Assembly (NCBI GenBank): GCA_947630285.1
Contig: CANRHD010000006.1
Span: 23,813 to 87,812 of the forward strand
From: an uncultured Clostridia bacterium
Lineage (GTDB): Bacteria; Bacillota; Clostridia; Oscillospirales; Acutalibacteraceae
Direction: 5' to 3'
Length of the DNA stretch: 64,000 bases
The translations under genes were made by a program, and so were the position numbers. This document shows, piece after piece, positions 43,981-64,000 of the stretch. The stretch's first letter is position 1, and each line of letters opens with the position of its first letter. The notes below the pieces were generated by a model. It worked only from the letters and a program-made list of their open reading frames with translations. It was not told where the DNA came from and made no database searches.

Positions 43981-44052
43981 GAGGGTGTAATGAATAAGAA
44001 CGAATGTTCGGAGACAAAGCGAACGGAAACGAATGAAAACGGAGGTAACAAA

Positions 44053-44301: not shown

Positions 44302-44683
44302 CGGTTTTTATCAAGCTTTCTCTTTTCTTTTCATAGATTTTTCACACACGGCAGACAGGGGCAGATTTTTTCTGCTCCTGTTTGCTTTTTAAGGACATAT
44401 ATCACAGTATAAAATCTACAAATACCGATTTGTGAAAAGTGCATAAAATTAATAATACTAAATAAAATATTATTATACCAAAAATTCTGCATTAAATCAA
44501 TAGAAATTACAAAATTATACATAAAATTTTCAAAACTGTCATACTGTTAAAATTTTATTATGTTTAAAACTTTTAGCTTTTTGGTAATTTTGCACAAACA
44601 TTACCAAAAAAGCCTATGTTTGTTTGACTTTGTTATACCAAAGTGGTAAAATATAGGTACAATTTGAATATGGAGGTAATATT

Positions 44684-45301: not shown

Positions 45302-45303
45302 AA

Positions 45304-46410
45304 ATGAAAGAAGCAATTTACGAAATGAATAAAAAATTATTTAAAATTATCTCTGTTGTTTTATCAGTTACTTTATTATTTAGTATTATTTCATTTAATG
45401 CAGTAGCAATTGATACTAATACAACAGAATCTGAAGAATCTGAAACATCGCCATACCCCTTAGGGTGTCTTCCGGAATTGCCTGATGAAATTGAATTCCC
45501 CTCTTTTGGTAATGCTGGTGCACCCAATACAACAAAAACATCAGTTGATTTAACTTCTAAATTCCCAACCCCTGGGGAACAAGACGGATCAAGTTGTGTC
45601 GCATGGGCTATTTCCTATTTAGTTTCTGGAGAAGAATATATTAAACGAGGTTGGTCAAAGACAGAAAAATCTCATATGTTTAGCCCATATTTTATATATA
45701 ATTCACTTAACAAAGATGAAGATAAAGGGCTAAGGCTTTCAGAAGCTATGCAATTCTTAGGAAATTCAGGTATTTGTACGCTTAATTATTTTTCATGTAA
45801 AAGCGGCGACTATAAAACGGATCCTACAGGAATAGCAAAAGCTAACGCAGAATTATATAAACCTTTTAATGTATATTCTGTTAAAGGCGTTCAGGAAATG
45901 AAGAACGCAATTGCATCAAATCATGGTGTTGTTATTAGAGTTCGAGCTTACCCTGATTTGTATAATATCAGCTCCTCAAATCCTATATACGATAACACTT
46001 TAGGATTTGCACCCGGTAATCATGCAATTTGTCTTATTGGTTATGATGACAGTAAAAGTGCCTTTAAGTTTATAAACTCTTGGGGTACCGATTGGGGATT
46101 AGGCGGTTATGGCTGGATATCTTATAGATTAATAGACTCATCGCTGGCTAATATAATTGCACTAAAGGGCTATTGTATAAATTTACCTGAAAATGATGAT
46201 TATATTCTCGGCGATGTAAACGGTGACGGAAAAATAAGTATTGTAGACTCTAAATATGTTTTGCAATATGAAGCTCAAAGCAGAACTTTAACAGACAGAC
46301 AGTTTGCACTTGCAGATGTTAACGGCGACGCAAAGGTTTCAATCGCTGATTCAAAGAGCATTTTGAACTATATAGCCGGAAATATAACAAAGATGCCGTT
46401 ATATAATTAA
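45304..46410 (+). CDS. papain-like (C1) cysteine peptidase with a C-terminal dockerin
   Basis: Cys 'GSSCVAWAISY', His 'GNHAICLIGYDD' and Asn 'NSWGTDWGLGGYGWISY'. Dockerin 'GDVNGDGKISIVDSKYVL...ADVNGDAKVSIADSKSIL'. The signal peptide suggests the true start may be the ATG at 45325. Confidence 0.88.
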   Translation: MKEAIYEMNKKLFKIISVVLSVTLLFSIISFNAVAIDTNTTESEESETSPYPLGCLPELPDEIEFPSFGNAGAPNTTKTSVDLTSKFPTPGEQDGSSCVAWAISYLVSGEEYIKRGWSKTEKSHMFSPYFIYNSLNKDEDKGLRLSEAMQFLGNSGICTLNYFSCKSGDYKTDPTGIAKANAELYKPFNVYSVKGVQEMKNAIASNHGVVIRVRAYPDLYNISSSNPIYDNTLGFAPGNHAICLIGYDDSKSAFKFINSWGTDWGLGGYGWISYRLIDSSLANIIALKGYCINLPENDDYILGDVNGDGKISIVDSKYVLQYEAQSRTLTDRQFALADVNGDAKVSIADSKSILNYIAGNITKMPLYN

Positions 46411-46440
46411 TATCTATAATTTAATATTGGAGGTAATATT

Positions 46441-47058
46441 ATGAATATGAAAAACAAAACATTAAGACTTACAGCGTTGTTTCTTACATTAGTTATGTTT
46501 GTCAGCCTGTTTACTTTTAATGTAATGGCAGAAGATATTAGCTCTAAATATCCAACAGGCGCTCTGCCGGAAGATCCAAACAGCATATTCGATTTTAGAA
46601 TTATGGGTTGTTTAAACACATATGGAGATTTTGATGAAGACAATATCATTTCAATCTCGGACGCAAAGTCAATATTGAAAAGTGTTGTGCATAATGATCA
46701 AAATCCCGATAAAGATTTAAACAACGACGGCCGTGTTTCTATACTTGACGCAAGACAAATTCTTCGTGTTGTAGTAAAGCTTGATACATTCCGAATAAAA
46801 GCAGAGCTTAAAGTCGGCGAAGTATATGAAACCGGTACAGCTTATGATAAAGAGCCTTGTAAATGGACCTGTAATATATCCCCTAAAGTCGGACTCATAG
46901 GAATAAAGAAATATTCTTATCCTTCAACTCCTCCTCTTTATGAGTATAACTTCACAGCAACAGTACCCGGCGAATATGAAGCTGTATTAAAATATGAAAA
47001 CAGCACCACACACGAAGTGCTTAGGGAAATAACATATAATTTTACCGTTACCGAATAA
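46441..47058 (+). CDS. paralogue of 44684..45301 (dockerin plus the same C-terminal domain)
   Basis: Same length (205 aa) and near-identical nucleotide tracts (46726..46868 vs 44963..45105; 46951..47045 vs 45192..45290). Confidence 0.7.
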   Translation: MNMKNKTLRLTALFLTLVMFVSLFTFNVMAEDISSKYPTGALPEDPNSIFDFRIMGCLNTYGDFDEDNIISISDAKSILKSVVHNDQNPDKDLNNDGRVSILDARQILRVVVKLDTFRIKAELKVGEVYETGTAYDKEPCKWTCNISPKVGLIGIKKYSYPSTPPLYEYNFTATVPGEYEAVLKYENSTTHEVLREITYNFTVTE

Positions 47059-47095
47059 TTATTTACGGTAATTAACAAAGCAAAAAGCAAAAGAG

Positions 47096-47127
47096 AAACC
47101 GTCGGTTCGCCGGCGGTTTTATTTTTT
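47096..47127 (+). terminator. intrinsic terminator
   Basis: AAACCGTCGG/CCGGCGGTTT hairpin plus TTTTATTTTTT. Confidence 0.75.
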
Positions 47128-47239
47128 CGCAGTTCGGGACTGCACCTCGGTTTAAATGAAAACATTTTACTTTTTTAGGTTGTAATATAAAACGAAAAAT
47201 GATAAAATATTTTATATCTAAGTTCAAGGGGAAATTAAA

Positions 47240-48733
47240 ATGATATACGAAAGCATAAAAAAACTTGTTTGCTACGGCCTTGAAAAGGGTCTTATTAAAG
47301 AGTGCGACCGTGTTTATGTCACAAACAGAATACTTGAGGTTTTGGCGCTCAATGAATACGACGAGCCGCAGGAGAATTTCAGCAATGTGGATCTCGAAAG
47401 TACTCTGTGCGAATTGCTTGACTTTGCGGCGGAGAACGGCGTGCTTGAAAACAACAGCGTTGTTTACCGTGATTTGCTCGATACAAAGCTTATGGCATGC
47501 CTTATGCCCATGCCGCACGAAGTAATTGAAAAATTCAACTCCCTTTATAAAATCAGCCCCGAAAGCGCTACGGATTATTTCTATAACCTGAGCTGTGACA
47601 GCGATTACATTAGAAGATACAGGATAAAAAAGGATATGCGCTGGAGCGTTGAAAGCAAATACGGCGAGATTGATATTTCGATTAACCTTTCAAAGCCCGA
47701 AAAAGACCCCAAGGCCATTGCGGCGGCAAAGCTTCAAAAGCAGTCGGGCTATCCCAAATGTATGCTCTGCAAAGAGTGCGAGGGCTACAGCGGTACGGTC
47801 AATTTCCCCGCAAGGCAAAACCACAGGGTCATACCTGTTACCATAAACGGCTCTCAATGGGGTTTTCAGTACTCCCCCTATGTCTATTACAATGAGCATT
47901 GTATAGTCTTTAACGGCGAGCATACGCCTATGAAAATTGAAAAAGCTACCTTTAAAAAGCTTTTTGATTTTATAAAGCTGTTTCCCCACTATTTTCTCGG
48001 CTCAAATGCGGACTTGCCCATAGTCGGCGGTTCTATACTTTCCCATGACCACTATCAGGGCGGTCATTACACCTTCGCCATGGCAAAAGCGCCCATTGAA
48101 AGGCATTTTACCGTTAAAGGCTACGAGGATATAGAGGCAGGTATAGTAAAATGGCCGCTTTCGGTTATCAGACTGCGTTCTAAGGACTGCGACGGGATAA
48201 TCGAGCTCGCCGATGTTATACTCAATAAATGGAGGGGCTATACCGACGAGGAGGCCTGTATTTTCGCCTATACCGAGAACGAGCCGCACAACACAATTAC
48301 GCCCATTGCGAGAAAGGTCGGCGACACCTACGAGCTTGACCTTGCTCTGCGTAACAATCTCACAACAGAGCAGTACCCCCTCGGCGTTTACCATCCGCAC
48401 GAGGTTTACCACCATATCAAGAAAGAAAATATCGGCCTTATTGAGGTTATGGGTCTTGCCGTACTGCCTTCAAGGCTTAAGCATGAGCTTGCGAAGCTTG
48501 GCGAATACATTGTGGAAAACAAGGATATCCGTGCCGACGAAGAGCTTGAAAAGCATGCGGACTGGGTTGACGGCTTTAAGGGAAATTACGAAAACATAAC
48601 AAGCGAAAATGTTGACGGTATACTAAAAGCCGAGGTCGGCAAGGTCTTTGTCGGCGTGCTTGAGGACGCCGGAGTGTATAAATGCACCGACGAAGGCAGA
48701 AAAGCGTTTATGAAATTTATCAACACTTTATAA
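47240..48733 (+). CDS. galT: UDP-glucose--hexose-1-phosphate uridylyltransferase (type 2 GalT)
   Basis: 497 aa, the Gram-positive long GalT form. 'GGSILSHDHYQGG' active-site motif. Confidence 0.9.
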   Translation: MIYESIKKLVCYGLEKGLIKECDRVYVTNRILEVLALNEYDEPQENFSNVDLESTLCELLDFAAENGVLENNSVVYRDLLDTKLMACLMPMPHEVIEKFNSLYKISPESATDYFYNLSCDSDYIRRYRIKKDMRWSVESKYGEIDISINLSKPEKDPKAIAAAKLQKQSGYPKCMLCKECEGYSGTVNFPARQNHRVIPVTINGSQWGFQYSPYVYYNEHCIVFNGEHTPMKIEKATFKKLFDFIKLFPHYFLGSNADLPIVGGSILSHDHYQGGHYTFAMAKAPIERHFTVKGYEDIEAGIVKWPLSVIRLRSKDCDGIIELADVILNKWRGYTDEEACIFAYTENEPHNTITPIARKVGDTYELDLALRNNLTTEQYPLGVYHPHEVYHHIKKENIGLIEVMGLAVLPSRLKHELAKLGEYIVENKDIRADEELEKHADWVDGFKGNYENITSENVDGILKAEVGKVFVGVLEDAGVYKCTDEGRKAFMKFINTL

Positions 48734-49039: not shown

Positions 49040-50548
49040 GTGGCTGAAAAGAACAACGCCAACATCGGCTTTGAAAAACAAATTTGGGACGCAGCCTGCG
49101 TTCTTTGGGGACATATCCCGGCGGCAGAGTACAGAAAGGTTATCGTAGGGCTGATTTTCCTGCGTTACATATCCGGCGCCTTTGAAAAGCAATACAATAA
49201 GCTGAAAGCAGACGGCGACGGCTTTGAGAATGACAGGGACGCTTATCTTCAGGACAACATATTTTTCGTTCCCGAAAAAGCCCGTTGGAGTAAAATCGCT
49301 TCTTGTGCCCATACGAGGGAAATCGGTACTGTGATTGACGATGCAATGCGTGCGATTGAAGCCGAGAACAAGAGCTTAAAAAATGTGTTGCCAATGAACT
49401 ATGCAAGCCCCGACCTTGACGATCGTGTTTTAGGCGATGTGGTTGACCTTTTTACCAATATGGATATTGGCGGCGCAGAAGAAAGCAAGGATTTGCTCGG
49501 CAGAACCTATGAATACTGTATCAAGCAATTTGCGGCCTACGAGGGCGTAAAGGGCGGAGAATTTTATACGCCGTCAAGTATTGTCAATACGATTGTCGCC
49601 ATATTAAAACCGTTTGGAGGCTGCCGTGTTTACGATCCGTGCTGCGGTTCGGGCGGTATGTTTGTGCAGTCTGCCAAATTCATTAAAGATCATGCCGGCA
49701 ACAGATCCGATGACATATCAATTTACGGGCAGGAGAGCAACGCCGACACATGGAAAATGGCGAAGATGAATATGGCGATCCATGGTATTGAGCCCGATTT
49801 CGGACCATATCATGCGGACACCTTTTTCAACGACCTGCACCCCACCCTGAAAGCCGATTTCATTATGGCAAATCCGCCCTTCAATCTCTCTAACTGGGGC
49901 GGCGACAAGCTGAAAGACGACAAACGCTGGGCTTTCGGTACGCCGCCTGTCGGAAATGCCAACTATGCGTGGATTCAGCATATGATCCACCACCTCGCAC
50001 CAAACGGTAAAATCGGATTGGTACTTGCAAACGGCGCTCTTTCCTCACAGACGGGCGGCGAGGGCGAGATACGCAAAAATATCATTCAGGCCGACCTTGT
50101 GGAGGGCATAGTCGCTCTGCCTACGCAGTTATTTTACAGCGTGACCATTCCCGTTACCCTTTGGTTTATCTCGAAGAACAAGAAGCAGAAAGGCAAGACG
50201 CTCTTTATTGACGCCCGGAAAATGGGCCATATGGTTGACCGCAAGCACAGGGATTTTACCGATGAGGACATACAAAAACTTGCGGACACCTTTGAGCAGT
50301 TCCAAAACGGAACACTTGAAGATGTCAAAGGCTTCTGTGCCGTCGCCGACCTTGCCCAAATCGAAAAACAGGACTTCATTCTGACGCCGGGCAGATATGT
50401 CGGCATTGAGGAACAGGAGGATGACGGCGAGCCGTTCGGGGAAAAGATGACCCGTTTGACCGCCGAACTGTCCGAGATGTTCGCAAAGTCCCACGAATTG
50501 GAGGACGAAATACGAAAGAAACTGGGGGCGATTGGGTATGAAGTGTAA
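49040..50548 (+). CDS. hsdM: Type I restriction-modification methyltransferase subunit
   Basis: HsdM N-terminal domain ('LIFLRYIS'), SAM motif 'VYDPCCGSGGM' and catalytic 'ANPPFN'. GTG start after a GGAGG RBS. Confidence 0.93.
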   Translation: MAEKNNANIGFEKQIWDAACVLWGHIPAAEYRKVIVGLIFLRYISGAFEKQYNKLKADGDGFENDRDAYLQDNIFFVPEKARWSKIASCAHTREIGTVIDDAMRAIEAENKSLKNVLPMNYASPDLDDRVLGDVVDLFTNMDIGGAEESKDLLGRTYEYCIKQFAAYEGVKGGEFYTPSSIVNTIVAILKPFGGCRVYDPCCGSGGMFVQSAKFIKDHAGNRSDDISIYGQESNADTWKMAKMNMAIHGIEPDFGPYHADTFFNDLHPTLKADFIMANPPFNLSNWGGDKLKDDKRWAFGTPPVGNANYAWIQHMIHHLAPNGKIGLVLANGALSSQTGGEGEIRKNIIQADLVEGIVALPTQLFYSVTIPVTLWFISKNKKQKGKTLFIDARKMGHMVDRKHRDFTDEDIQKLADTFEQFQNGTLEDVKGFCAVADLAQIEKQDFILTPGRYVGIEEQEDDGEPFGEKMTRLTAELSEMFAKSHELEDEIRKKLGAIGYEV

Positions 50549-50936
50549 GATAGATACCAAAAATTTTGCTAAAAAAATTGGCTTTGAAAAAATTAATGAA
50601 TTTCCAGAACATTTTACGCCTACATTTGTTTTAGCAGTTGTTAACGGGCATAGCATAACAGTATCAGAAATGCTAAAACAAATTGAGTATGCAATTAGAT
50701 TTATTAAAGCAAATTTTGATGTTGATCAAAAGAAGTACAGCGAAACCCTTAAATTTCTTAAATTATGTGAGCTTAGATTTCAAAATCATTCATCAAGCAA
50801 ACCGAAAAAAAATATGTTGCATTTTGCGGTTGAAGTTTTTCACGAGATACAGGATATGCACGCCAAGGACGAGAAGACAAAAAAAGAAAATGAAAATATA
50901 TCTCTTTATTTGAATATATTAATTGATATGTTTTAA
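50532..50936 (+). CDS. orphan hypothetical protein embedded in the R-M locus
   Basis: 134-aa AT-rich ORF overlapping the hsdM end by 17 nt. No motif recognised. Confidence 0.4.
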   Translation: MGMKCKIDTKNFAKKIGFEKINEFPEHFTPTFVLAVVNGHSITVSEMLKQIEYAIRFIKANFDVDQKKYSETLKFLKLCELRFQNHSSSKPKKNMLHFAVEVFHEIQDMHAKDEKTKKENENISLYLNILIDMF

Positions 50937-50970
50937 ATGTAATATATTATCGTGTATATTATATTGATAC

Positions 50971-51255
50971 TTGAACGAAATTCCTGTCCCGTTTGTGCCG
51001 TTGAAAGTGCTGTACAACAGAATGACGATAGGCGGCATTGAAACTCGCCTGCGAGAAATGGGAAAACGCTTGGGCGTGTCAAAGGTGCGCCCACATAAAT
51101 TCAGACGAACCCTCGCCACTATGGCGATAGATAAGGGAATGCCAATCGAACAGCTTCAACAGCTCTTGGGGCATAAAAGAATAGATACAACCTTGCAGTA
51201 CGCAATGGTCAAACAGAGCAATGTAAAGCTTGCTCATAGGAAATATATCGGGTAG
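50971..51255 (+). pseudogene. C-terminal fragment of a tyrosine recombinase
   Basis: Only the last ~90 aa remain, with box II 'HKFRRTLAT...LLGHKRIDTTLQY'. The N-terminal core-binding and Arg-I regions are absent and there is no ATG start. Confidence 0.8.
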
Positions 51256-52439: not shown

Positions 52440-52473
52440 GCCGATAAATTATATATAGAGGGTGCTCTATTTC

Positions 52474-52836
52474 ATGGATTTCAAATACTTAGACAATGAA
52501 TCAGAACAAAAATTAAAAGAATTTTTAAGTTGCAATAATATTACTTATAATAAATTCAATGACCGAGTGATAGAAAATTTAATCAATTTAGGCTATTTAA
52601 AGGGTGAAGATATTTCTCCTATATCGGAATCACATACATGCTATGTTGTAATAGATATTACGCAAAAAGGTAAGTCTTATTTTGAAATGAAGAAAAGATA
52701 TGAAAAAGAGCAAAAAAGAATAACACACAAAGATTGGTGGATTGCTATAATAAGTGCTTTAATCGGCGCTTTAATCGGTCTAATACCTACTATTGCGCAT
52801 TGGATTGAAACGATATTTCAAAAAAATAATGATTAG
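52474..52836 (+). CDS. orphan small protein with a C-terminal TM anchor, embedded between hsdS and hsdR
   Basis: About 120 aa. Soluble N-domain followed by 'WWIAIISALIGALIGLIPTIAHWI'. Confidence 0.45.
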   Translation: MDFKYLDNESEQKLKEFLSCNNITYNKFNDRVIENLINLGYLKGEDISPISESHTCYVVIDITQKGKSYFEMKKRYEKEQKRITHKDWWIAIISALIGALIGLIPTIAHWIETIFQKNND

Positions 52837-55987: not shown

Positions 55988-56031
55988 ATTCCTTTCTGTG
56001 TTTCCTCTTCATTTGCCATATTAATCAAAAA

Positions 56032-56063
56032 AGTCTGTAGTTGTTGAAACTACAGGCTTTTTA
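56032..56063. terminator. bidirectional intrinsic terminator
   Basis: AGTCTGTAGTT/AACTACAGGCT hairpin plus TTTTT, between convergent hsdR and 56066..57145. Confidence 0.7.
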
Positions 56064-56065
56064 AT

Positions 56066-57145
56066 TTATTGTGACGGTGTCAGTCCGCTTTCTTTTATAT
56101 ACGCCATTATTCTTGCGGTTTCTTCTTCGCCGTATTTTCTTGCTGCAACCTCAAGTGGCTGATCCTCATATTCATCAAATCCATATTTCAAAGCGCTTTT
56201 ATAATTCTTTTTATTATTCACAAGTTCCCTCAACTCCTTAAAATATGAGGTATTTAAAGCCGGGTCTTCCCAGTCAAGAGAATTTGCAAGATAATTAATA
56301 TACGAATGGTGTACTTCGTGACATATTGTGTTTATCACCTCTTCAACAGATGACTTTGCCAAATGTTCAACACTAATCGAAATTTGATTGGATTCATCAT
56401 CATAGCTGCCTAATGTTGCAAAGCCAATCATACCGGCCTTTATAGGTATGGCCGGAGTACCGAGAACACCGGCTTCAAAATCAACAAGCTTTTGCATAAC
56501 AGTTATTTTTTCTTGAACCGATAACCGATTCCATGTATTTTCTTGCAGATAACCCCATAGCTCCGTATTCTGCGTATAAAAATTCTCCGTCTCATCATCT
56601 GCTTGCTCTGATGCTTTATTCTCAGAGAACAGCTGATTATAAATTTTATCCGTAGCTTTATATATAGGGGACTTAAATCCATACATAAAAATTGAGATTA
56701 AACAAGGAATAGCGCACACAACGGCTATGCTGAGAACCGAACCTCTTCTAAATGCAAATTGGTATCTTCGATGTTGCTTTTTTGAAAACTTATGCTTTCG
56801 TTCGGATTTTCTTAAAGCACAAAAAAGTGCAGTTTCACAGCCCAACAAAATTAACATAATCAAGACGGACAAAACGAAATGCCACTGTGCGAATACGAGC
56901 ATAAACACAATTTCGACGGGAACTATGTTGAACAACAATTCTGTTATTGTACCGTTACAGGTCCCGTACCTTAAAGGAGAACAGCATAGCCATACCACCG
57001 TAACCATAATAATCAAAATTAGCGAGGACCATGTTCCCATATAAAGACCGATTTTCGGAATACAGAATGCAAACGGTTTGGCAAAACTATAGAATATCAT
57101 TATAAGGGGTATGATGATAGACGACTTGTAGATGATTCGTTTCAT
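56066..57145 (-). CDS. 5-TM membrane protein with a C-terminal HExxH (zincin-like) domain
   Basis: AGGAGG RBS before the ATG at 57145 ('MKRIIYKSS'). Five hydrophobic helices, then a soluble domain containing 'ICHEVHHSY'. Confidence 0.6.
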   Translation of the reverse strand: MKRIIYKSSIIIPLIMIFYSFAKPFAFCIPKIGLYMGTWSSLILIIMVTVVWLCCSPLRYGTCNGTITELLFNIVPVEIVFMLVFAQWHFVLSVLIMLILLGCETALFCALRKSERKHKFSKKQHRRYQFAFRRGSVLSIAVVCAIPCLISIFMYGFKSPIYKATDKIYNQLFSENKASEQADDETENFYTQNTELWGYLQENTWNRLSVQEKITVMQKLVDFEAGVLGTPAIPIKAGMIGFATLGSYDDESNQISISVEHLAKSSVEEVINTICHEVHHSYINYLANSLDWEDPALNTSYFKELRELVNNKKNYKSALKYGFDEYEDQPLEVAARKYGEEETARIMAYIKESGLTPSQ

Positions 57146-57223
57146 GCTGTTCCTCCTGATTTTCATATAAGCAATATATAGAATTTTGATTAAAAATGCT
57201 ATAAACCGACAGAAAACACATAT

Positions 57224-57793
57224 CTAACCGAGAATTCCGTCAATGATTCCATATTTCAAGGCTTCATCTGTATCCATCCAGAAATCGCGGTCGCAGTCGC
57301 GAGATATGGTTTGTATATTCTGACCGGTGTTTTCTGAAAGAATTCTGTGAAGCTTATTCTTGACTTTCGTTATGTGCTCAGCGGCAAGCTGAATATCTGA
57401 CGCTTGTCCTTGAGCTCCTCCAAACGGTTGATGAATCATAATTTCGCTCAAAGGGGTAGCGAACCGACTGCCTTTAGTGCCGCAGGACAGGATAAAAGCG
57501 CCCATGCTTGCAGCCATACCGGTACATATTGTGGATACATTACATTTGCAACGGTTAATGGCGTCAACAATTGCGAAACCAGCGCTTACGCAACCCCCGG
57601 GGCTGTTTATGTATATTTTGATGTCATCTGATCCATTGTTATCAAGATATTCTATCTGTGAGATAGTCTCCATAGCAACGGTATCGTTAATTTCGGAAAA
57701 AAGATATATTTTTCTGCTTTTTGTGAAATCATACGACAGAAGGTCTAAACCTTCTTTTCCTGATTTTGAAACGCTGATAACAGACGGTACCAT
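57224..57793 (-). CDS. stand-alone ClpP-family serine protease (accessory copy)
   Basis: 189 aa. 'INSPGGCVSAG', Ser 'GMAASMGAFIL', His 'IMIHQP' and 'DTDEALKYGIIDGI'. No tig/clpX neighbours. Confidence 0.8.
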   Translation of the reverse strand: MVPSVISVSKSGKEGLDLLSYDFTKSRKIYLFSEINDTVAMETISQIEYLDNNGSDDIKIYINSPGGCVSAGFAIVDAINRCKCNVSTICTGMAASMGAFILSCGTKGSRFATPLSEIMIHQPFGGAQGQASDIQLAAEHITKVKNKLHRILSENTGQNIQTISRDCDRDFWMDTDEALKYGIIDGILG

Positions 57794-59443
57794 TTAATTA
57801 TCCTCCTCATCTTCAAGTATGTCAAAAAGTTCATTAAATTTTTCCTCGAGCTCCTTGCGAATATCCTCATCCAATATTTCCTCCGAAGCCTTGTCTGACT
57901 TTTTTCTTTGGCTTTTTTTACGGGCAGCTTCTGTTTTTGACTTCAATTTACTTTGCGGACAAAATGGCTTGTTTGCTTTGCCTATTGAAACATCGCTCAT
58001 CAGATCGACGAAAGAATAAAAACATACCGGTGGGTGTGTCATATCCGGCAACTCGGCTTCTTCATAAGTACAGAAAGTCTCATACTTTTCAATGGAGGGT
58101 AGCGATGTGCAGTATCGTATGTCTGACGAAAGGTTCAAATAAATTGCTTCTTTTGAATACCAGTCTTTTCGCAGAGTCATAAGCTCCGGAACAGATATCA
58201 AAGGTTCCTCATGTCCGGACATCGTTATTTCCGTTGTTCCGCAGCGCCGGCTTATTTCTTCCAGCAATTCAAGTTCCGTAGAGCCCAGAAAAAGTGTTGT
58301 TGTGCAGTTTGTCATCATATTCTTATAATTAGGATAGCGTTTTTTTAAAAGATCAATAGATTGACAGCACAGATAGTATCTGATGTTTCTGCTTCTGTGT
58401 GTTGCAAGCGCTGTGGCTATATCAGGTATGGGAAACGAGCAAAACTCATCTAAGACAAAATTTACTCTGGTGCTGAGTTTTCCTCCCTTTGAATGGAAAG
58501 CTTTTTCAACTAATAAATTTTGAATTTGGGAAATAAGTGTTCCTATAATCGGATCGCATACTGTACTTGAATCATCGGTTATTACATAAATAGCCGTTTT
58601 TTCTTCCGAAAGTTCATCTAATTCAAATGTACTGTGACTAAGCATTCGGGCAAGATGATCGTTTTGAATAAATTTTTGAATAAAACTGGAACATGTGCTT
58701 AAAGTTGACATTAGCGTTTTTTCCGGCTCGGAGAGTACGGTTCGCAGATTCTGCATTGCCGCATTTGCAAGTTCCGACTCCTGATTAACATACTCGTTCA
58801 AATACCCTGCCGTGCGATTTGTGTAATAATCGGCCAGACTGATAAAATTAACGGCATCCGGATTGGGATATGATGAATACATAATAGGGAGTATTCCATT
58901 GTTTGCGGCCATAGCAGTGTTTGGCCAAAACACATCGACCTTGCTGTTTTCAAATTGCTCCTGTGCCAACGCTGCTACAAGATTACTGGACACAGATGTT
59001 GCTTTATCTATTTCTCCGGATCTATACAATTTTGTTGGATAAGATAACGGGTTATATCCTTCTCCGTTATAATCTCTGAAATTCAATACACGAATTTTAT
59101 ACCCCAAATGCTTCAAATAGTTTGCGGTTCGAGCGTACAATTCCCCTTTTGGATCGGTGATAAACATGTTTTCGCCGGCCTTAGCCAAGGTGCATATCAA
59201 CGGCATAAACACACATATACTCTTTTTAAATCCGCTGGCGCCATAAACAATACAATGCGAATCGGAAGCATCAACAAGAGCTTTTTTACCGTCAGATACG
59301 ATTGGAAGACCTCCTTTGCTGAGTGGGCTATCATCCAAGTAGTTTACAGAAACCAGATTTTCCCTTATGTTTTCGTCTGACGACCAATTAGTTTTAGGAT
59401 TTGGATGCGTGTACGCTCGATATATTGCTTCATAACTCTTCAT
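57794..59443 (-). CDS. soluble TraG/VirD4 (type IV coupling protein)-like ATPase
   Basis: 'ITDPKGELY', 'NFVLDEFCSFPIP...LATHRSRNIRYYLCCQSIDLLKKRY' (TraG-D_C-like) and the atypical P-loop 'GASGFKKS'. No N-terminal TM helices. Charged C-terminal tail. Confidence 0.7.
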   Translation of the reverse strand: MKSYEAIYRAYTHPNPKTNWSSDENIRENLVSVNYLDDSPLSKGGLPIVSDGKKALVDASDSHCIVYGASGFKKSICVFMPLICTLAKAGENMFITDPKGELYARTANYLKHLGYKIRVLNFRDYNGEGYNPLSYPTKLYRSGEIDKATSVSSNLVAALAQEQFENSKVDVFWPNTAMAANNGILPIMYSSYPNPDAVNFISLADYYTNRTAGYLNEYVNQESELANAAMQNLRTVLSEPEKTLMSTLSTCSSFIQKFIQNDHLARMLSHSTFELDELSEEKTAIYVITDDSSTVCDPIIGTLISQIQNLLVEKAFHSKGGKLSTRVNFVLDEFCSFPIPDIATALATHRSRNIRYYLCCQSIDLLKKRYPNYKNMMTNCTTTLFLGSTELELLEEISRRCGTTEITMSGHEEPLISVPELMTLRKDWYSKEAIYLNLSSDIRYCTSLPSIEKYETFCTYEEAELPDMTHPPVCFYSFVDLMSDVSIGKANKPFCPQSKLKSKTEAARKKSQRKKSDKASEEILDEDIRKELEEKFNELFDILEDEEDN

Positions 59444-60198
59444 AGTGTAATCTCCTCTTTGCTGATTCGCTGTATTTTTTCCATGTCTTTTTCTGAGATC
59501 AAGTCAAAACAGAAACCGTCCGGGTTTTTAAAATATTTTGCCATCATTTCAGGACGAACAGTTATATGCGTACCAAAAAATGATTTCAAATCATTCTCTA
59601 TAGCAATAACGGTTCTCTTTGTCTTTATTGCATTTTGGGGAATAAAACGGCGAAACAAATTTTCCGTTTGTGTGAGAAAATGAATGTCATGTTTTTCACG
59701 CAAATCTTCAAAGAAACACTTGTATAAATCACATTCGGCAAATGATGCCTTATCAAGTCTTTTAACTTTAAAATACCTTAGTAATACCTCTATTTCGTCT
59801 TCAGTCAATTTGTTTCCGGGCGAGATAAAAATATATTTCCAAATATCTGACATATCGCTCAAAAAAGGCAGGGTAATATCGGAAAATAACTCCTCTGTAA
59901 GGTGTCCTTTCCATTCAGTAATATCAATCACTATATATCCTCTGTATTCATCTTTAAACCGAATATTGCTTCTTGCCGTTTCCTGAAACCGTTTTAATTC
60001 GTGAAAACGATTCTGCTCATACGGAAGACAATACCTGAAAATAAATTTGAAATACAAGCACTCACCGTTAAAGCTGTCCGGTGAAATGCGAAAGGCCTCA
60101 GAACAAATTTGCTCAATTTGATCGTCCAAACTCTCCTCGTCATCTGATAAAAGAATAAAATTCTGTGGAAAAAATTTATTTTTGTAAAATATCGACAT
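59440..60198 (-). CDS. hypothetical protein, first gene of the operon
   Basis: AAAGGAG RBS 5 nt before the ATG at 60198 ('MSIFYKNKFF'). Its stop overlaps the next ATG (ATGA). The ORF-track extension to 60426 would contain the predicted promoter. Confidence 0.55.
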   Translation of the reverse strand: MSIFYKNKFFPQNFILLSDDEESLDDQIEQICSEAFRISPDSFNGECLYFKFIFRYCLPYEQNRFHELKRFQETARSNIRFKDEYRGYIVIDITEWKGHLTEELFSDITLPFLSDMSDIWKYIFISPGNKLTEDEIEVLLRYFKVKRLDKASFAECDLYKCFFEDLREKHDIHFLTQTENLFRRFIPQNAIKTKRTVIAIENDLKSFFGTHITVRPEMMAKYFKNPDGFCFDLISEKDMEKIQRISKEEITL

Positions 60199-60327
60199 AA
60201 TGACTCCTTTCAAAGCATTGTCAACTGATATGTTTCCGTTTTGTTTTATTATGTATAAGCTAAACGGTATCTGCAAAATTTTCTGGAATTTGTTTGTTGC
60301 ATAGACCGTCCTATATTTCTTGATTAA

Positions 60328-60357
60328 ATTATAGTACCTAATTAATCCAGCAAGCAA
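60328..60357 (-). promoter_or_regulatory. candidate promoter of the four-gene operon
   Basis: Minus strand reads TTGCTT, 18-nt spacer, TATAAT. Confidence 0.4.
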
Positions 60358-60579
60358 CTTACTGTTTTTCCAATAAGGTAACATAATCACCCATTTTTTG
60401 TAATCTATATCCAATATTACTAACAAAGAACTTTAGATTTTTTCGCATGGCATATTATAAAGCAGAAAATATTCCTTTTATAGTTTACGGCAAAAGCCAA
60501 TTAGGCATTATTTATTAGTATTGCAATCCAATAAATTATAAATCATAAAAAATATCCGTATTAATTTTTCCAATATATA

Positions 60580-60608
60580 TTGACGGAAGTTCCTATATTG
60601 AATATAAT
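60580..60608 (+). promoter_or_regulatory. candidate promoter of the 1036-aa gene
   Basis: TTGACG, 17-nt spacer, TATAAT, 50 nt upstream of the ATG at 60658. Confidence 0.5.
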
Positions 60609-60657
60609 TATAGTCAAGATTTGCATTAGTCTTTAATAGAGTATAGGAGTGATTTAT

Positions 60658-63600
60658 ATGACGGAAAATTATAGAATGATTAATACAAGTTATGGGGAAA
60701 AATCAAATATAGGAATAAGAAAAAATGTCTCATTAAGCTCAGTTTCGGAAAAGATATTGGTTCACGAAAATATTGCAAAGGCAAAAAGCGGAAAATATAA
60801 TTGCTTTGCTGTCTCTTACCTTTTTGATGACCTTTTTTGCGGAAATGAATACACAAAATTTTTTAGTAAGAAACCACTTATTAAATTAGATGATAGTCCC
60901 TGTGGACATAAAGGAATTCTTTCTTTCATTTTTCCTGACGAAATACTCAAAACAATTAAAGAAAAGGACGATAAACTTAAGCTAACCAAAGAAAAGAAGA
61001 ATACCGCCATTAAAGAAGATCACTATGCCCATTTCCTACAGCTTAAGTATAACGACAATATAATCACAAACTTTATATACGAGGTTTATGCGAAATTAGG
61101 TTGGAAAAAATTTATTAACTTAATACAATGTCACATTGCCGACCAATTAGCCGAAAAAAACTTATGTATTAACCAGGATTTGATTGAATACCTTTCTATC
61201 GTTGGCAATGAAACAATAGTTCCCTATGATACATCGCCTAAATCAAATGAAGAGTTTTTACATTTAATTGAAAAAGGTAAGAATGGCGATAATCAAGCGT
61301 TAATTTTAGTTATTTCCAATTTTTTTATTTCAAGCATTCTTGGACTTAGATCTTTGAATTTTCCCAGTGATACCGGTAAGGGCAAAAAGCCTTCGTTCAA
61401 GACCTATCTGCTCAGTTGTACAGGTATGGAGTGTATTTGGAAACCCGATTTGATCTCACCCCCTTATGAGCGTTTGTTTGATTCTCGAAGACTGTTTGAA
61501 AACGCAAACTACAGGAGTGCAATTAAAACTATTGAGGAGTGGCTTAATGAATACGAACAAGTAGCGTCAAACGAGGCTAAAGCTCTCGCATACCAGATTC
61601 TTGGCTTTTCTCTTTATAATTTAACTTCATCAGATGACAAGGAATTAAATAGCTGTCAATCAAAAGGAACACAATACCTTAAAAAATGTATTGACACAGG
61701 TAAAGCAGATCTGTCTGTTTATTACTCTTTGTATGATTATCTAAAAGAAAGTCTAATGGAAGAGGCTACTGAATATTTAAAAACAGCTTTTGCACATAAC
61801 TATGCAAAAGCTGTTATTGAGGTTGCATTCTTATATTTAAACGATGCGTGTATATTTGACGAGATCACCGAGGAATTGCTTCTTAAAAAAATCAATTACA
61901 TAATTGAAAATGAAAGAAAAAATGATATAGTTGATGTCGGAAAATGCCTTTATTTACGTGGACAGTTTGAAAAAAAATACGGCAATGAATCAAATGCTAA
62001 CCGTGACTTTGAATCGGCCGTAAAAAAAGGAAACGAAAGAGCAAGACAGGAAATCAGCCGTAAGAAGCGTAATGAAAGAAATTCTTTTCCTAAATTTATC
62101 AATAATAAAAATGCGCCGTGTTGTTATTCAAATACCTTTACCGACAACAACTACACTGTAGCTTCTACATTTCCAAGCGGAACTTGGTCAATGTACACGC
62201 CCGACAAAACGGATAAAGAAGGCGTAAATGAAATTTCAGGTATAGAAGAATTTATTGATTTGCAGTGCAAATCTGGATTTAATCATTCAAGATTTGTTTT
62301 CCTTTTTATGAGTCAAGATGAAGATAAGAATTTGAATGAGTGTTTGATTCTGCTGGATAAGTTATTTAACTTTGTTCTAAGCAAATCGGAAGAAGTAAGA
62401 TGGAAAATTATTGATTTGATTGACATTTTTGTAAGCGCAAAATACGAAACGGCATCTATGCTGATTGACGCAAATATCAGTGATATGGGAGATGACATCT
62501 ACTTTAAAGTGCACATCACTGATGCGAACAGAGATACCGTCCATAAACTTCTTTGTGATGTTCCGCTTTTCACGCCGGCATTGAGCGGATTAAAAAAAGA
62601 AAAGTTCACGAAAGTCGTTCTCTTCGGGGATTCGGAAATTAACTATAGCTTCATAAAGGAAAGTGTTGCGTGTGCCTATTTGGGAGAAAAGCATCCCATA
62701 GATATAACTTTGATGGGAGAGAATGCTGAAGTTCTTGAAAACAGATTCCGTCAGGAGTGCCCGGGCATATACAAAGATACTCCTCATATTTCTTGCATAA
62801 TGCCGCAATTCATAAGGTGTAATGTCAAGGAAGCGGACTTTCCGAATTTAATTTACGGTAAAATTCATGACCATATTCTTGATGAAAAAAAAGAACATTC
62901 TATCGATGCAGAAGCAGTTAATGCGCTGCTTGAAGCAAATTACTTTGTCGTAGATTACTCGGATGATCTTGAAAACATTAAATTTGCCTCTGAACTAAGG
63001 ACATGGCTGCTCAGAAGCAGAGGGACATTCGATCGTGCCCCATTTATAGCTGTAAAATGCTCTGATGAACAAAACTCATACCTTGCAAGACATTTAACTC
63101 TTTCAGGACAGGCAGCCGGCAGTTCATACTTCAATAAATATGACTTGTTTCCGATTGGTATCTCTGCACAGACTTATTCGTACAAAAACATTATCGAGAA
63201 TCCGGTATTGAATGAATTTGCTCTTCGCATACATAAGTCGTATTATGATGGCAACGAGAGAAAAGCAGAAAACGATTTTTACAGCTATTCCTACAATTCT
63301 GATTCCTCGCTTTCAACCGCAATTGGATTGTGTTACCGCTTCTTTTCTGCAGGTATAGCATTTAAGGAAAAAGATAGCTATTTGAACTTTAGGTTTTTCA
63401 ACACGCCAAATATCGGTTCCAAATTTGAGGAAGAATATCGGGAAAAGCTTGAGGATTTGGCCGCTTTGGAGCAATCAAGATGGAATGGGTTTATGTTGAG
63501 TCGGGGATGGGAATCAGCAAGCAAAAGCGAAGTACAGGCTTATAAAGAACAATCAACCGGTTTAGCACACAAACACATTCTTGCAAAAAAGCACCCGTTT

Positions 63601-63768
63601 ATCAGAGAATGGGACGCTCTTGATACTTCCAAATTATCTGATTTGTTAGGCATATTGAAATCGAAATTTAATTATGACCGTCAGCCGCAGGTTACAACCA
63701 AGAAAAGTATTGAGGATACATCAAAATTCTTTAGAACAAAATCTAAGGAAAAGGAAAAAATACATTAA
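60658..63768 (+). CDS. large (1036-aa) hypothetical protein: unknown N-domain, Sel1/TPR-like repeats, degenerate Rossmann-like modules, C-terminal RW...GW module
   Basis: AGGAG RBS 8 nt before the ATG at 60658. Sel1-like 'YAKAVIEVAFLYLN' and 'FESAVKKGNERARQEI'. 'KVVLFGDSEINY' and C-terminal 'LEQSRWNGFMLSRGWE...KKHPFIREWDAL'. Confidence 0.6.
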   Translation: MTENYRMINTSYGEKSNIGIRKNVSLSSVSEKILVHENIAKAKSGKYNCFAVSYLFDDLFCGNEYTKFFSKKPLIKLDDSPCGHKGILSFIFPDEILKTIKEKDDKLKLTKEKKNTAIKEDHYAHFLQLKYNDNIITNFIYEVYAKLGWKKFINLIQCHIADQLAEKNLCINQDLIEYLSIVGNETIVPYDTSPKSNEEFLHLIEKGKNGDNQALILVISNFFISSILGLRSLNFPSDTGKGKKPSFKTYLLSCTGMECIWKPDLISPPYERLFDSRRLFENANYRSAIKTIEEWLNEYEQVASNEAKALAYQILGFSLYNLTSSDDKELNSCQSKGTQYLKKCIDTGKADLSVYYSLYDYLKESLMEEATEYLKTAFAHNYAKAVIEVAFLYLNDACIFDEITEELLLKKINYIIENERKNDIVDVGKCLYLRGQFEKKYGNESNANRDFESAVKKGNERARQEISRKKRNERNSFPKFINNKNAPCCYSNTFTDNNYTVASTFPSGTWSMYTPDKTDKEGVNEISGIEEFIDLQCKSGFNHSRFVFLFMSQDEDKNLNECLILLDKLFNFVLSKSEEVRWKIIDLIDIFVSAKYETASMLIDANISDMGDDIYFKVHITDANRDTVHKLLCDVPLFTPALSGLKKEKFTKVVLFGDSEINYSFIKESVACAYLGEKHPIDITLMGENAEVLENRFRQECPGIYKDTPHISCIMPQFIRCNVKEADFPNLIYGKIHDHILDEKKEHSIDAEAVNALLEANYFVVDYSDDLENIKFASELRTWLLRSRGTFDRAPFIAVKCSDEQNSYLARHLTLSGQAAGSSYFNKYDLFPIGISAQTYSYKNIIENPVLNEFALRIHKSYYDGNERKAENDFYSYSYNSDSSLSTAIGLCYRFFSAGIAFKEKDSYLNFRFFNTPNIGSKFEEEYREKLEDLAALEQSRWNGFMLSRGWESASKSEVQAYKEQSTGLAHKHILAKKHPFIREWDALDTSKLSDLLGILKSKFNYDRQPQVTTKKSIEDTSKFFRTKSKEKEKIH

Positions 63769-63773
63769 TAAAT

Positions 63774-64000
63774 TGAACTGCTCCAAACTGTACGGACAGC
63801 ACAAAAGCCCCCTGTGGTAGGGAATATTAAGATTTAAGCAATGAACTGACTTCGCAATTCAAGTGGGGTCAGTTTTGTTTTGAATTGAATACGCTGATGG
63901 TTGTAAAAATAGATGTACTCATCAATGAGGAGGCAAGCCTCCTCATAGGTTTGGAGTTTAACTCGATAAATACACTCTGTTTTGAGAATAGAAAAGAAAT
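63774..64000 (-). mobile_element. IS3-family insertion sequence, truncated by the window edge
   Basis: The terminal repeat begins TGAACTGCTCC at 63774. It contains the 3' end of a transposase gene. Confidence 0.75.
63834..64000 (-). CDS. IS3-family transposase (OrfB/integrase), C-terminal 55 aa only
   Basis: The minus-strand translation ends '...KTECIYRVKLQTYEEACLLIDEYIYFYNHQRIQFKTKLTPLELRSQFIA*', which is the typical rve-integrase C-terminus. Confidence 0.8.
   Translation of the reverse strand, partial: FFSILKTECIYRVKLQTYEEACLLIDEYIYFYNHQRIQFKTKLTPLELRSQFIA

What the first reader, a model, noticed from the sequence alone, without database searches (positions are those of the whole stretch)
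56066..60357. Four-gene operon next to Type I R-M: candidate undescribed defence or conflict system
**Seen in the sequence**
- Four minus-strand genes are packed for co-translation. The stop of gene 1 overlaps the start of gene 2 (ATGA at 59440-59443). The gene 2 stop is followed directly by the gene 3 ATG (TAAATG at 57791-57796). Gene 4 follows after 78 nt with a strong AGGAGG RBS.
- The four products are an unknown 252-aa protein, a TraG/VirD4-like ATPase, a ClpP-like protease and a 5-TM HExxH protein.
- The block is visibly more AT-rich than the flanking housekeeping genes.
- It has its own promoter-like TTGCTT-18-TATAAT and a shared terminator with hsdR.
- It sits between a complete Type I R-M system and an IS3 element, which is a classic defence-island context.

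**Established knowledge**
- TraG/VirD4 ATPases normally belong to conjugation machinery and carry N-terminal TM helices. This one has none.
- No relaxase, VirB4 or pilus gene is in the window.
- ClpP normally sits next to tig/clpX or within phage head modules. Neither is present here.

**Inference**
- A nucleic-acid-sensing or translocating ATPase coupled to a self-compartmentalising protease and a membrane metalloprotease-like effector could form an abortive-infection-type module.
- I do not recognise this gene combination as any named defence system.
Basis: partly seen in the sequence, partly recalled or inferred. Interest (0 to 1): 0.86.

Follow-up and report, generated by a model that had tools for sequence, protein, structure and literature searches.

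The report
Coupling-protein ATPase plus ClpP candidate defence module
A compact operon pairs a membrane-less relative of a conjugation "coupling" ATPase with its own ClpP protease and an inactive AAA+-like partner; the set recurs across gut Clostridia outside conjugative elements and prophages, which makes it a credible but untested and unnamed immune or conflict module.

Summary
The four minus-strand genes exist as described. They are g1 (252 aa), g2 (549 aa, soluble VirD4/TraG-like ATPase), g3 (189 aa ClpP with an intact Ser-His-Asp triad) and g4 (359 aa, five TM helices plus HEVHH). They are tightly coupled, more AT-rich than most of the window, and lie between a Type I R-M system and a large unknown gene followed by an IS3 fragment.

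Comparative data refine the unit:
- g1-g2 is a conserved pair, found in 71 of 85 non-redundant loci.
- ClpP follows it throughout one clade (25 loci), and the three genes co-diverge (r about 0.93).
- Other clades carry a Card1-like nuclease, a helical/TPR protein or a C-terminal extension of g2 in place of ClpP.
- g4 is accessory. Few triads have it, but most g4 homologues sit near a T4CP-like ATPase plus ClpP.

No recurrent relaxase or phage morphogenesis family and no VirB4 lie near the triads. Neighbours include type III CRISPR, R-M, E1/JAB and kinase/PP2C genes. PADLOC and literature searches find no named system. g1 is predicted to be a degenerate AAA+ fold.

Verdict: a real conserved module and a plausible new defence or conflict system. 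Function and mechanism are untested.

The parts
59440..60198 (-). g1: 252-aa partner protein with a predicted degenerate AAA+-like fold (clamp-loader delta/RFC-like) and no Walker A motif
   Evidence: ORF; start and RBS. Homologues are 250-259 aa. AF2 mean pLDDT is 86. Foldseek against PDB hits RFC, clamp-loader and ClpA/ClpC AAA+ modules at E about 5e-6, probability 1.0, TM 0.33-0.36. A g1 homologue lies directly upstream of g2 in 71 of 85 loci.
57794..59443 (-). g2: 549-aa soluble VirD4/TraG/TrwB-like (FtsK-HerA class) ATPase. Walker A is GASGFKKS at residues 68-75; Walker B is VLDEF at 330-334; the C-terminal tail is acidic.
   Evidence: Pfam hits. NCBIfam conju_CD1115 scores 228 bits, below the 250 cut-off. 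No TM segment. Invariant Walker residues. The best plasmid T4CPs are at most 28% identical.
57224..57793 (-). g3: 189-aa ClpP paralogue with catalytic Ser96, His121 and Asp170
   Evidence: Pfam PF00574 at 1.5e-65. It scores below the TIGR00493 equivalog cut-off (216 vs 308.6). The triad is conserved in 26/26, 26/26 and 24/26 sequences. It aligns full length with solved cellular ClpPs at 4e-58 and is 44% identical to E. coli ClpP.
56066..57145 (-). g4: 359-aa membrane protein with five TM helices and a C-terminal zincin-like HExxH domain (H276, E277, H280). It is an accessory component.
   Evidence: AF2 mean pLDDT is 88.5. Foldseek gives only local hits to minigluzincins, SPRTN, HtpX and IrrE at probability 0.8-0.97 but E > 0.1. 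Pfam SprT-like scores 22.4, below the 25.6 cut-off. In the g4-seeded scan, 7 of 9 informative loci carry a T4CP-like ATPase plus ClpP, as do three further g4 contexts.
56028..56062 (.). Bidirectional terminator-like hairpin shared by the convergent g4 and hsdR
   Evidence: 15-pair stem flanked by T runs on both strands.
60328..60357 (-). Promoter-like TTGCTT-18-TATAAT upstream of g1 (weak consensus match, not statistically supported)
   Evidence: Read directly. It is not listed by the scan, which found 23 sites against 17.5 +/- 4.6 expected.
60649..63768 (+). Divergent 1039-aa unannotated protein ('big'). It is a recurrent neighbour and possibly an accessory or independent conflict gene.
   Evidence: Homologues lie beside T4CP-like/ClpP modules in L009, L093 and L117. 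The family has 367 representatives with a conserved C-terminal half, residues about 545-1030. Pfam gives only a weak DUF2225/TPR-like hit. No PDB sequence match.

Best explanation
The locus encodes a self-contained, horizontally mobile proteolytic conflict module.

Components:
- The core is g1 (an inactive AAA+-like adaptor or regulator) plus g2. g2 is a soluble ring ATPase derived from a type IV coupling protein, the class that normally recognises relaxase-DNA complexes and pumps them.
- In this clade the pair is wired to a dedicated ClpP paralogue (g3) as the output.
- In sister clades the output is a Card1-like nuclease, a helical/TPR protein or a domain fused to g2.
- g4 is an optional membrane-anchored zinc-peptidase-like protein.

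Proposed working:
1. g1-g2 senses or captures an invader-derived nucleoprotein or DNA.
2. ATP hydrolysis by g2 activates ClpP or feeds it substrate.
3. ClpP then destroys invader proteins or essential host proteins, the latter giving an abortive outcome.

Shown:
- the domain identities;
- intact catalytic motifs;
- operon coupling;
- co-inheritance of the three genes;
- swapping of the third gene between clades;
- no VirB4 and no recurrent relaxase or phage morphogenesis family near the triad;
- frequent defence-gene neighbours.

Inferred:
- the immune role;
- physical coupling between g2 and ClpP;
- the trigger;
- the proteolytic targets.
For: Conservation of the unit:
- The g1-g2-ClpP triad appears in 25 non-redundant species-representative loci, plus L093 and metagenome loci, at 42-82% g2 identity.
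- Median gaps are -1 nt for g1 to g2 and about 12 nt for g2 to ClpP.
- Pairwise distances of the three genes correlate at r = 0.93, with 0 of 999 Mantel permutations reaching that value.

Modularity:
- The g1-g2 pair occurs in 71 of 85 loci.
- Alternative third genes are a 286-aa helical protein (16 loci), a Card1-like endonuclease (5 loci, translationally coupled in L036 and L046), TPR proteins, or 670-1078-aa g2 fusions.

Context:
- VirB4 was not detected in any of the 25 loci. No relaxase or phage morphogenesis family is among the listed recurrent neighbour families.
- Neighbours include Cas10/RAMP type III genes, E1-E2/JAB, DolB, PDC-M37B, Pkinase+PP2C, TIR and R-M genes.
- In the window the operon lies between a Type I R-M system and an IS3 fragment, and its GC content is low.
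- Only 1 close locus was found among 2.9 million viral contigs. Plasmid matches are at most 28% identical, and those are true T4CPs beside relaxase and VirB4.

Enzymology:
- Walker A and B motifs are invariant.
- The ClpP triad is conserved.
- Positions that align with the E. coli ClpP hydrophobic docking pocket are replaced: Y60 to K/T, F82 to R/S/T/N/A, L114 to T/G. The pocket residue list is from memory. The replacements fit a non-canonical partner.
Against: - There is no experimental evidence and no match to any validated defence system.
- Many triad loci are flanked by housekeeping genes, and no formal defence-island enrichment statistic was computed.
- Several related loci carry a Clp/Hsp100-class AAA+ gene (PF07724) a few genes away. 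That gene, or host ClpX/ClpC, could be the real ClpP partner instead of g2.
- No IGF-like docking motif specific to the ClpP clade was found in g1 or g2.
- A helical/TPR protein as the third gene in 16 loci is not an obvious effector.
- The related ClpP-then-T4CP' variant lies near MobC/relaxase or a full-length T4CP in L115-L117. L113 and L108 carry a distant VirB4-like ATPase. A role in mobile-element biology is therefore possible.
Confidence: 0.5

Rival explanations
1. The module is cargo or an accessory function of integrative mobile elements and serves the element rather than the host. Possible roles are entry exclusion, processing or turnover of relaxase-DNA intermediates, establishment in a new host, or anti-defence proteolysis.
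For: - g2 derives from coupling proteins and is closest to the NCBIfam CD1115 conjugal family.
- The sister variant (ClpP then T4CP' then g4) lies about 9 kb from MobC/relaxase in L115 and L116, and beside a 645-aa T4CP in L117.
- A distant VirB4-like 827-829-aa ATPase lies upstream in L113 and L108.
- The modules recur in large same-strand arrays with OmpA, VWA and a second TrwB-like ATPase.
- The window copy is low in GC and lies near an IS3 fragment.
Against: - None of the 25 species-representative triad loci has VirB4, and no relaxase, TrbL/PrgI or NlpC/P60 family is among the recurrent neighbour families within +/-10 kb.
- Several triad loci are embedded in housekeeping genes.
- No close homologue is found on 72,556 plasmids.
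- Defence systems themselves often ride on ICEs, so proximity to a relaxase does not discriminate between the two readings.
Confidence: 0.2
2. The module is an alternative housekeeping or stress proteolysis or repair system. One example would be removal of DNA-protein crosslinks or stalled nucleoprotein complexes by a DNA-tracking ATPase with ClpP and a SprT-like peptidase.
For: - g3 is a full-length cellular-type ClpP.
- g4 shows weak SprT-like/SPRTN similarity.
- g1 resembles clamp-loader subunits.
- Some loci sit among housekeeping genes.
Against: - Distribution is sparse: 459 relatives of g2 among 185,579 species genomes, and only 25 of the 85 non-redundant loci examined carry the ClpP triad.
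- The third gene is swapped between clades.
- GC content is atypical.
- Defence genes are frequent neighbours.
- g4 is absent from most triads, and its peptidase domain is predicted to lie outside the membrane, away from DNA (inference and the positive-inside rule).
Confidence: 0.15
3. The operon is a decayed remnant of an ICE or prophage (a truncated T4CP plus a prohead protease) with no current function.
For: - g3 hits PHROG head-maturation protease families.
- g2 lacks the N-terminal membrane anchor of T4CPs.
Against: - All four ORFs are intact and their catalytic motifs are conserved.
- The triad persists with co-divergence down to about 42% identity.
- g3 matches cellular ClpPs over its full length, with no capsid or portal genes nearby.
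- Only 1 close locus was found among the viral contigs.
Confidence: 0.03

Closest known systems
Type IV coupling proteins (VirD4/TraG/TrwB; NCBIfam 'VirD4-like conjugal transfer protein, CD1115 family')
   Same: g2 has the FtsK-HerA-class NTPase domain with the TrwB all-alpha/TraG-D_C region and intact Walker A and B motifs.
   Different: - g2 has no N-terminal TM anchor.
- It scores below the family cut-off (228 vs 250 bits).
- It is at most 28% identical to plasmid T4CPs, which lie beside relaxase, TrbL, PrgI and VirB4.
- g2 is instead paired with g1 and ClpP, and no T4SS genes were detected.
Clp proteases (ClpXP, ClpAP, ClpCP)
   Same: g3 is a full-length ClpP with a Ser-His-Asp triad and is 44% identical to E. 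coli ClpP.
   Different: - The operon encodes no AAA+ unfoldase. The only active ATPase is RecA/FtsK-HerA class, and g1 is an AAA+-like fold without a P-loop.
- g3 scores below the clpP equivalog cut-off.
- Positions aligned to the E. coli docking pocket are altered (the residue list is from memory).
HerA/FtsK-class ATPase-effector defence systems (for example SIR2-HerA and DUF4297-HerA; recalled from the literature, not tested here)
   Same: The logic is the same: a ring ATPase of the FtsK-HerA superfamily encoded next to an interchangeable effector, in defence-island-like contexts.
   Different: The ATPase branch differs (TraG/VirD4 rather than HerA). The effector is ClpP. There is an extra obligatory AAA+-like partner. 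No PADLOC model matches.
ATPase-plus-protease defence pairs (for example IetAS, the BREX BrxL Lon-like protein, and type III CRISPR CalpL; recalled, not tested)
   Same: Each couples an NTPase or sensor with a serine protease output, which is proposed here as the immune effector.
   Different: The protein families are unrelated, and no ClpP-based defence system was found in PADLOC or in the searched literature.
ClpP-like phage prohead maturation proteases
   Same: g3 hits PHROG head-maturation protease families.
   Different: The match to cellular ClpP is much stronger and covers the full length. No capsid, portal or terminase genes are nearby. Only one close locus was found among the viral contigs.

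Membership tests
Type IV coupling protein (VirD4/TraG/TrwB) | Homologous NTPase domain with Walker A/B motifs and the TraG-D_C/TrwB region | tested here: met
   PF02534 at 1.2e-36, PF12696 at 3.5e-19, PF10412 at 1.4e-8. Invariant G71/K74 and D332/E333.
Type IV coupling protein (VirD4/TraG/TrwB) | N-terminal transmembrane anchor | tested here: not met
   No 19-residue window of g2 exceeds hydropathy 1.33. The Pfam match starts at residue 36 of 549.
Type IV coupling protein (VirD4/TraG/TrwB) | Encoded with relaxase, VirB4 or T4SS genes | tested here: not met
   VirB4 was found in 0 of 25 triad loci by jackhmmer. No conjugation family is among the recurrent (top-25) Pfam neighbour families. True CD1115 T4CPs do have these neighbours.
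NCBIfam NF045973 conju_CD1115 (equivalog) | Score at or above the curated cut-off | tested here: not met
   228 bits against a cut-off of 250.
ClpP (PF00574 / TIGR00493) | Pfam family score at or above the cut-off, and a Ser-His-Asp triad | tested here: met
   220.9 bits against 20.2. Ser96, His121 and Asp170 align with the E. coli triad and are conserved in the clade.
ClpP (PF00574 / TIGR00493) | Orthologue of housekeeping clpP (equivalog cut-off; clpX/tig neighbourhood) | tested here: not met
   216.3 bits against 308.6. Neither the window ORFs near the operon nor the listed neighbour families include clpX or tig.
AAA+ ATPase (g1) | AAA+ alpha/beta plus lid fold | tested here: met
   Foldseek against PDB hits RFC, clamp loader, MgsA and ClpA/ClpC at probability 0.97-1.0 and E down to 4.6e-6. 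The global TM score is low (0.33-0.36).
AAA+ ATPase (g1) | Walker A P-loop (GxxxxGK[ST]) | tested here: not met
   No such motif occurs in g1 or in the 17-sequence alignment, and no Pfam hit was obtained.
Named anti-phage defence systems (PADLOC-DB v2.0.0) | HMM match of the components to a known or candidate system | tested here: not met
   All four proteins and 'big' give 0 families at E <= 0.01. Later databases (current DefenseFinder or PADLOC) were not available.
Zincin metallopeptidase (SprT-like / M48 / minigluzincin) for g4 | HExxH motif conserved | tested here: met
   H276, E277 and H280 are invariant in 25 homologues and in the distant copies.
Zincin metallopeptidase (SprT-like / M48 / minigluzincin) for g4 | Family-level sequence or fold match | tested here: inconclusive
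   SprT-like scores 22.4, below the 25.6 cut-off. Foldseek gives local hits to jannalysin, SPRTN, HtpX and IrrE at probability 0.8-0.97 but E of 0.2-2.
Prophage head-maturation protease module | Adjacent capsid, portal or scaffold genes | tested here: not met
   No phage structural family is among the recurrent neighbour families. Only one close locus was found in IMG/VR.

The most novel reading that the evidence does not exclude
A coupling-protein-derived (FtsK-HerA class) ring ATPase, together with an inactive AAA+-like partner, is the dedicated motor or gate of a remodelled ClpP. That would be a Clp protease driven by a non-AAA+ machine. The assembly would work as immunity by capturing DNA-linked invader proteins, such as conjugative relaxases or phage terminal proteins, and degrading them, or by unleashing abortive proteolysis.
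Probability: 0.2. Interest if true: 0.85.

Novelty: new variant of a known kind. Interest (0 to 1): 0.64.

Why it matters
- It would add a defence or conflict family built by exapting a conjugation coupling protein. That gives a route to sensing incoming DNA-protein complexes.
- It would be the first defence system found here to use ClpP as its effector.
- It would be the first case I know of where a ClpP is partnered with a non-AAA+ motor. This is relevant to Clp protease biology and to ClpP-targeting antibiotics.
- The family is common in gut Clostridia, where few defence systems have been tested.
- It sits in larger arrays with ubiquitin-like (JAB-E1) and Cdc48/Clp-like AAA+ modules. This hints at a wider network of proteolysis-based immunity.

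Tried and rejected
- PADLOC scans of the four proteins and 'big' gave nothing.
- A weak mad8 (MADS) hit belongs to a neighbouring 442-aa TrwB-like ATPase in other loci, not to g2. It probably reflects generic P-loop similarity. The MADS preprint gave no useful annotation.
- Literature searches for VirD4 or TraG with ClpP and defence, for type III CRISPR accessory genes, and for FtsK-HerA conflict systems found no description. One search failed on term length.
- PDB sequence searches for g4, the g2 profile and 'big' found no hits.
- A search for an IGF-like ClpP-docking motif specific to the ClpP clade in g2 and g1 found nothing convincing.
- The 223-aa gene preceding ClpP in the sister variant was tested as a g1 homologue and was not detected with the g1 HMM.
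- The window holds none of the other recurrent modules: OmpA, VWA, the second TrwB-like ATPase, JAB-E1 or AAA_2.
- The fourth gene downstream of ClpP is variable (VWA, Cas10-like, amidase, MgtC), so there is no universal fourth component.
- The intergenic region 60199-60648 shows only AT-rich chance-level repeats.
- The prophage and ICE-remnant readings were rejected (see rivals).

Full report
**Observation**

The four minus-strand ORFs are present at the stated coordinates.
- g1's longest ORF starts at a TTG (60426). The ATG at 60198 has an AAGGAG RBS and yields 252 aa, matching homologues of 250-259 aa.
- The g1 stop overlaps the g2 start (ATGA, 59443-59440).
- The g2 stop abuts the g3 ATG (57796-57791).
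- g4 most likely starts at 57145, preceded by AGGAGG and 78 nt after g3.
- A 15-pair hairpin at 56028-56062 separates the convergent g4 and hsdR.
- The proposed TTGCTT-18-TATAAT is present at 60357-60328. It is a weak match, and promoter-like sites in the region are not above chance (23 against 17.5 +/- 4.6).
- The operon (GC 0.38) and the adjacent 1039-aa gene (0.345) are more AT-rich than the 12-44 kb bulk of the window (0.42-0.47).
- A complete hsdM/S/R set lies on one side.
- On the other side lies the 1039-aa gene, then the C-terminus of an IS3-like transposase at the window edge. The IS3 call was read by eye.

**Component identities**

g2 (549 aa)
- It is a VirD4/TraG/TrwB-type ATPase: PF02534 at 1.2e-36, PF12696 at 3.5e-19.
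- Its closest NCBIfam is the CD1115 conjugal T4CP family, but below the cut-off (228 against 250 bits).
- It has no hydrophobic segment.
- It has an invariant Walker A (GxSGxKKS, residues 68-75) and Walker B (LDEF).

g3
- It is a cellular-type ClpP: PF00574 at 1.5e-65, full-length matches to solved ClpPs at 4e-58, and 44% identity to E. coli ClpP.
- Ser96, His121 and Asp170 are conserved across the clade.
- It scores below the clpP equivalog cut-off, so it is a paralogue.

g1
- It has no Pfam, PHROG, NCBIfam or PADLOC hit.
- A confident AF2 model (pLDDT 86) matches AAA+ modules of clamp loaders/RFC, MgsA and ClpA/ClpC (E down to 4.6e-6, probability 1.0, low global TM of 0.33-0.36).
- It has no P-loop, so it is a degenerate AAA+-like protein.

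g4
- It has five long N-terminal helices and a C-terminal domain with invariant H276, E277 and H280.
- Only local, statistically weak fold matches to minimal zincins (jannalysin/selecase, SPRTN, HtpX, IrrE) were found.
- SprT-like scores below its cut-off.
- The strongly basic loop before the last TM helix implies, by the positive-inside rule, an extracytoplasmic peptidase domain. This is an inference and was not tested.

**Comparative genomics**

Scope. A profile of g2 relatives found 459 loci in 185,579 species-representative genomes, almost all Clostridia from gut or rumen. Eighty were retrieved, in addition to the contig look-ups.

Core pair and third gene. The census covers 85 non-redundant loci.
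- A g1 homologue lies directly upstream of g2 in 71 loci.
- ClpP lies directly downstream in 25. These are all loci with g2 at 42% identity or more, plus L035.
- Gene junctions are tight: median -1 nt for g1 to g2 and about 12 nt for g2 to ClpP.
- Pairwise distances of the three genes co-vary: r about 0.93, with 0 of 999 Mantel permutations as high.
- In other clades the third position holds one of the following:
  - a 286-aa helical protein (16 loci);
  - a Card1-like endonuclease (5 loci);
  - TPR proteins;
  - a long C-terminal extension of g2 to 670-1078 aa.

g4
- It follows ClpP in only 3 of 25 triad loci from the species genomes. It is also present in the single close viral-contig locus, L093.
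- L093 is only 46% identical in g2 but reproduces the whole window arrangement: big, g1, g2, ClpP, g4.
- In the converse test, 7 of 9 informative g4-seeded metagenome loci carry a T4CP-like ATPase plus ClpP within 7 kb. So do three further g4 contexts.
- Some of these are a sister variant with the order ClpP then a roughly 420-aa T4CP-like ATPase (about 22% identical to g2).

g4 is therefore a genuine but optional component.

'big'
- It recurs in four module-bearing loci.
- It belongs to a larger family of 367 representatives with a conserved C-terminal half, so it may be independent.

**Context**

- Within +/-10 kb of the 25 triads, jackhmmer with two VirB4 queries found nothing.
- The two Pfam censuses (272 neighbour proteins) list no relaxase, T4SS or phage morphogenesis family. 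Only the 25 most frequent families are shown, so single occurrences could be missed.
- Recurrent neighbours are:
  - type III CRISPR (Cas10, RAMPs);
  - E1-E2/JAB;
  - DolB;
  - PDC-M37B;
  - Pkinase plus PP2C;
  - TIR;
  - R-M genes;
  - OmpA/VWA;
  - a second TrwB-like ATPase;
  - ordinary housekeeping genes.
- Bona fide CD1115-family T4CPs on plasmids are at most 28% identical. They are 650-760 aa long and lie beside MobP3 relaxase, TrbL, PrgI and VirB4.
- The phage database holds only matches of at most 29% identity.
- Caveats:
  - The sister variant lies about 9 kb from MobC/relaxase in L115 and L116, and beside a 645-aa T4CP in L117.
  - A distant VirB4-like ATPase precedes the module in L113 and L108. 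It was detected by jackhmmer only and is Pfam-negative.
- The modules often form long same-strand arrays with a JAB-E1 fusion and a Clp/Hsp100-class AAA+ gene (PF07724).

**Interpretation**

The data establish a conserved, co-inherited g1-g2-ClpP module with an optional membrane zincin.
- It derives from a coupling-protein ATPase that has lost its membrane anchor and its T4SS context.
- Three features fit a defence or conflict system best:
  - an interchangeable third gene (protease, nuclease or other);
  - sparse distribution with atypical GC content;
  - frequent defence neighbours.

I put this reading at about 0.5.

The most economical mechanism has three steps, all inferred.
1. g1-g2 senses or engages invader DNA or nucleoprotein.
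2. ATP hydrolysis licenses ClpP proteolysis.
3. ClpP acts against invader proteins or host proteins.

System ClpPs carry substitutions at positions aligned to the E. coli hydrophobic docking pocket (Y60, F82, L114). The residue list is from memory. These changes hint at a non-canonical partner. No docking motif was identified. A Clp/Hsp100-class AAA+ gene in related loci, or host ClpX/ClpC, could be the real partner.

Rivals:
- mobile-element accessory function (0.2);
- alternative housekeeping or repair proteolysis (0.15);
- a decayed remnant (0.03, effectively excluded by conservation).

**Novelty**

No PADLOC v2 model and no paper in the searchable library describes this gene set. Newer defence databases could not be consulted.

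I class it as a new variant of a known kind, namely ATPase-plus-effector conflict modules. There is a more radical possibility, with probability about 0.2, that it represents a ClpP protease driven by a non-AAA+, coupling-protein-derived motor.

Noticed in passing
window 60649-63768 (+): A 1039-aa unannotated protein lies divergent from the operon. Its family has 367 representatives at 50% clustering. The C-terminal half (about 545-1030) is conserved and the N-terminus is variable, possibly TPR-like (weak DUF2225 hit). It recurs next to T4CP-like/ClpP modules in L009, L093 and L117. No PDB sequence match.
   Followed up: partly
window 50532-51255 (+), between hsdM and hsdS: A 134-aa ORF with no family hit is followed by a 94-aa ORF. 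The second looks like the C-terminal catalytic end of a tyrosine recombinase (...LGHKRIDTTLQY...). This suggests a decayed or phase-variable (shufflon-type) Type I R-M locus. Read by eye only.
   Followed up: no
window 52462-52836 (+): A small 124-aa ORF with a C-terminal hydrophobic segment sits between hsdS and hsdR. It is conserved in the near-identical contigs (120 aa in L001). Its only family match is a weak NCBIfam LBF_2804 hit.
   Followed up: no
window about 63830-64000 (-): The C-terminal end of an IS3-family-like transposase (...YFYNHQRIQFKTKLTPLELR...) runs off the window edge.
   Followed up: no
window 44000-47500: A second low-GC stretch (0.33-0.36), with three plus-strand ORFs of 205, 368 and 205 aa, lies upstream of the R-M locus. 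It may belong to the same acquired island. Not annotated here.
   Followed up: no
L005 297-7969; L022, L023, L024, L027, L106 upstream of g1: A second conserved same-strand module often lies directly upstream of g1-g2-ClpP. It comprises an OmpA-like protein, a VWA protein, a 270-aa protein, a roughly 442-aa soluble TrwB-like ATPase (weak PADLOC mad8 hit, 3e-9), a roughly 300-aa protein and a roughly 135-aa protein. A variant carries an Endonuclease_NS_2 protein and a 381-aa protein. It may be another uncharacterised T4CP-derived system.
   Followed up: partly
L104, L105, L115, L116 (e.g. L115 7056-11059); L012 downstream of ClpP: A recurrent array comprises small proteins (possible Ubl/E2), a JAB-ThiF(E1) fusion (about 492 aa), a PF07724 Clp/Cdc48-class AAA+ protein (about 482 aa), g4, and in some loci an M50 peptidase. 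It looks like a ubiquitin-like conjugation module linked to the T4CP-like/ClpP genes.
   Followed up: partly
L115 12440-15484 (-), L116 same: A 1014-aa protein with a eukaryotic-type RNA-dependent RNA polymerase domain (PF05183) is encoded next to the g4 homologue in a Clostridia MAG.
   Followed up: no
L012, L013, L015, L017 (e.g. L012 7298-9224): In Acutalibacteraceae and Faecousia loci, a 328-475-aa protein with weak CARF-nuclease (Csx1/CARF4-PD-DExK) similarity and a roughly 315-aa unknown protein lie directly upstream of g1 on the same strand. This hints at cyclic-oligonucleotide input in some variants.
   Followed up: no
L067 10001-13237; L058, L063: Long g2 homologues (670-1078 aa) carry one to three copies of a roughly 100-aa C-terminal repeat domain (motif ...YYD/GILEND/KxDGxFLF...), separated by highly acidic linkers. 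No Pfam match.
   Followed up: no
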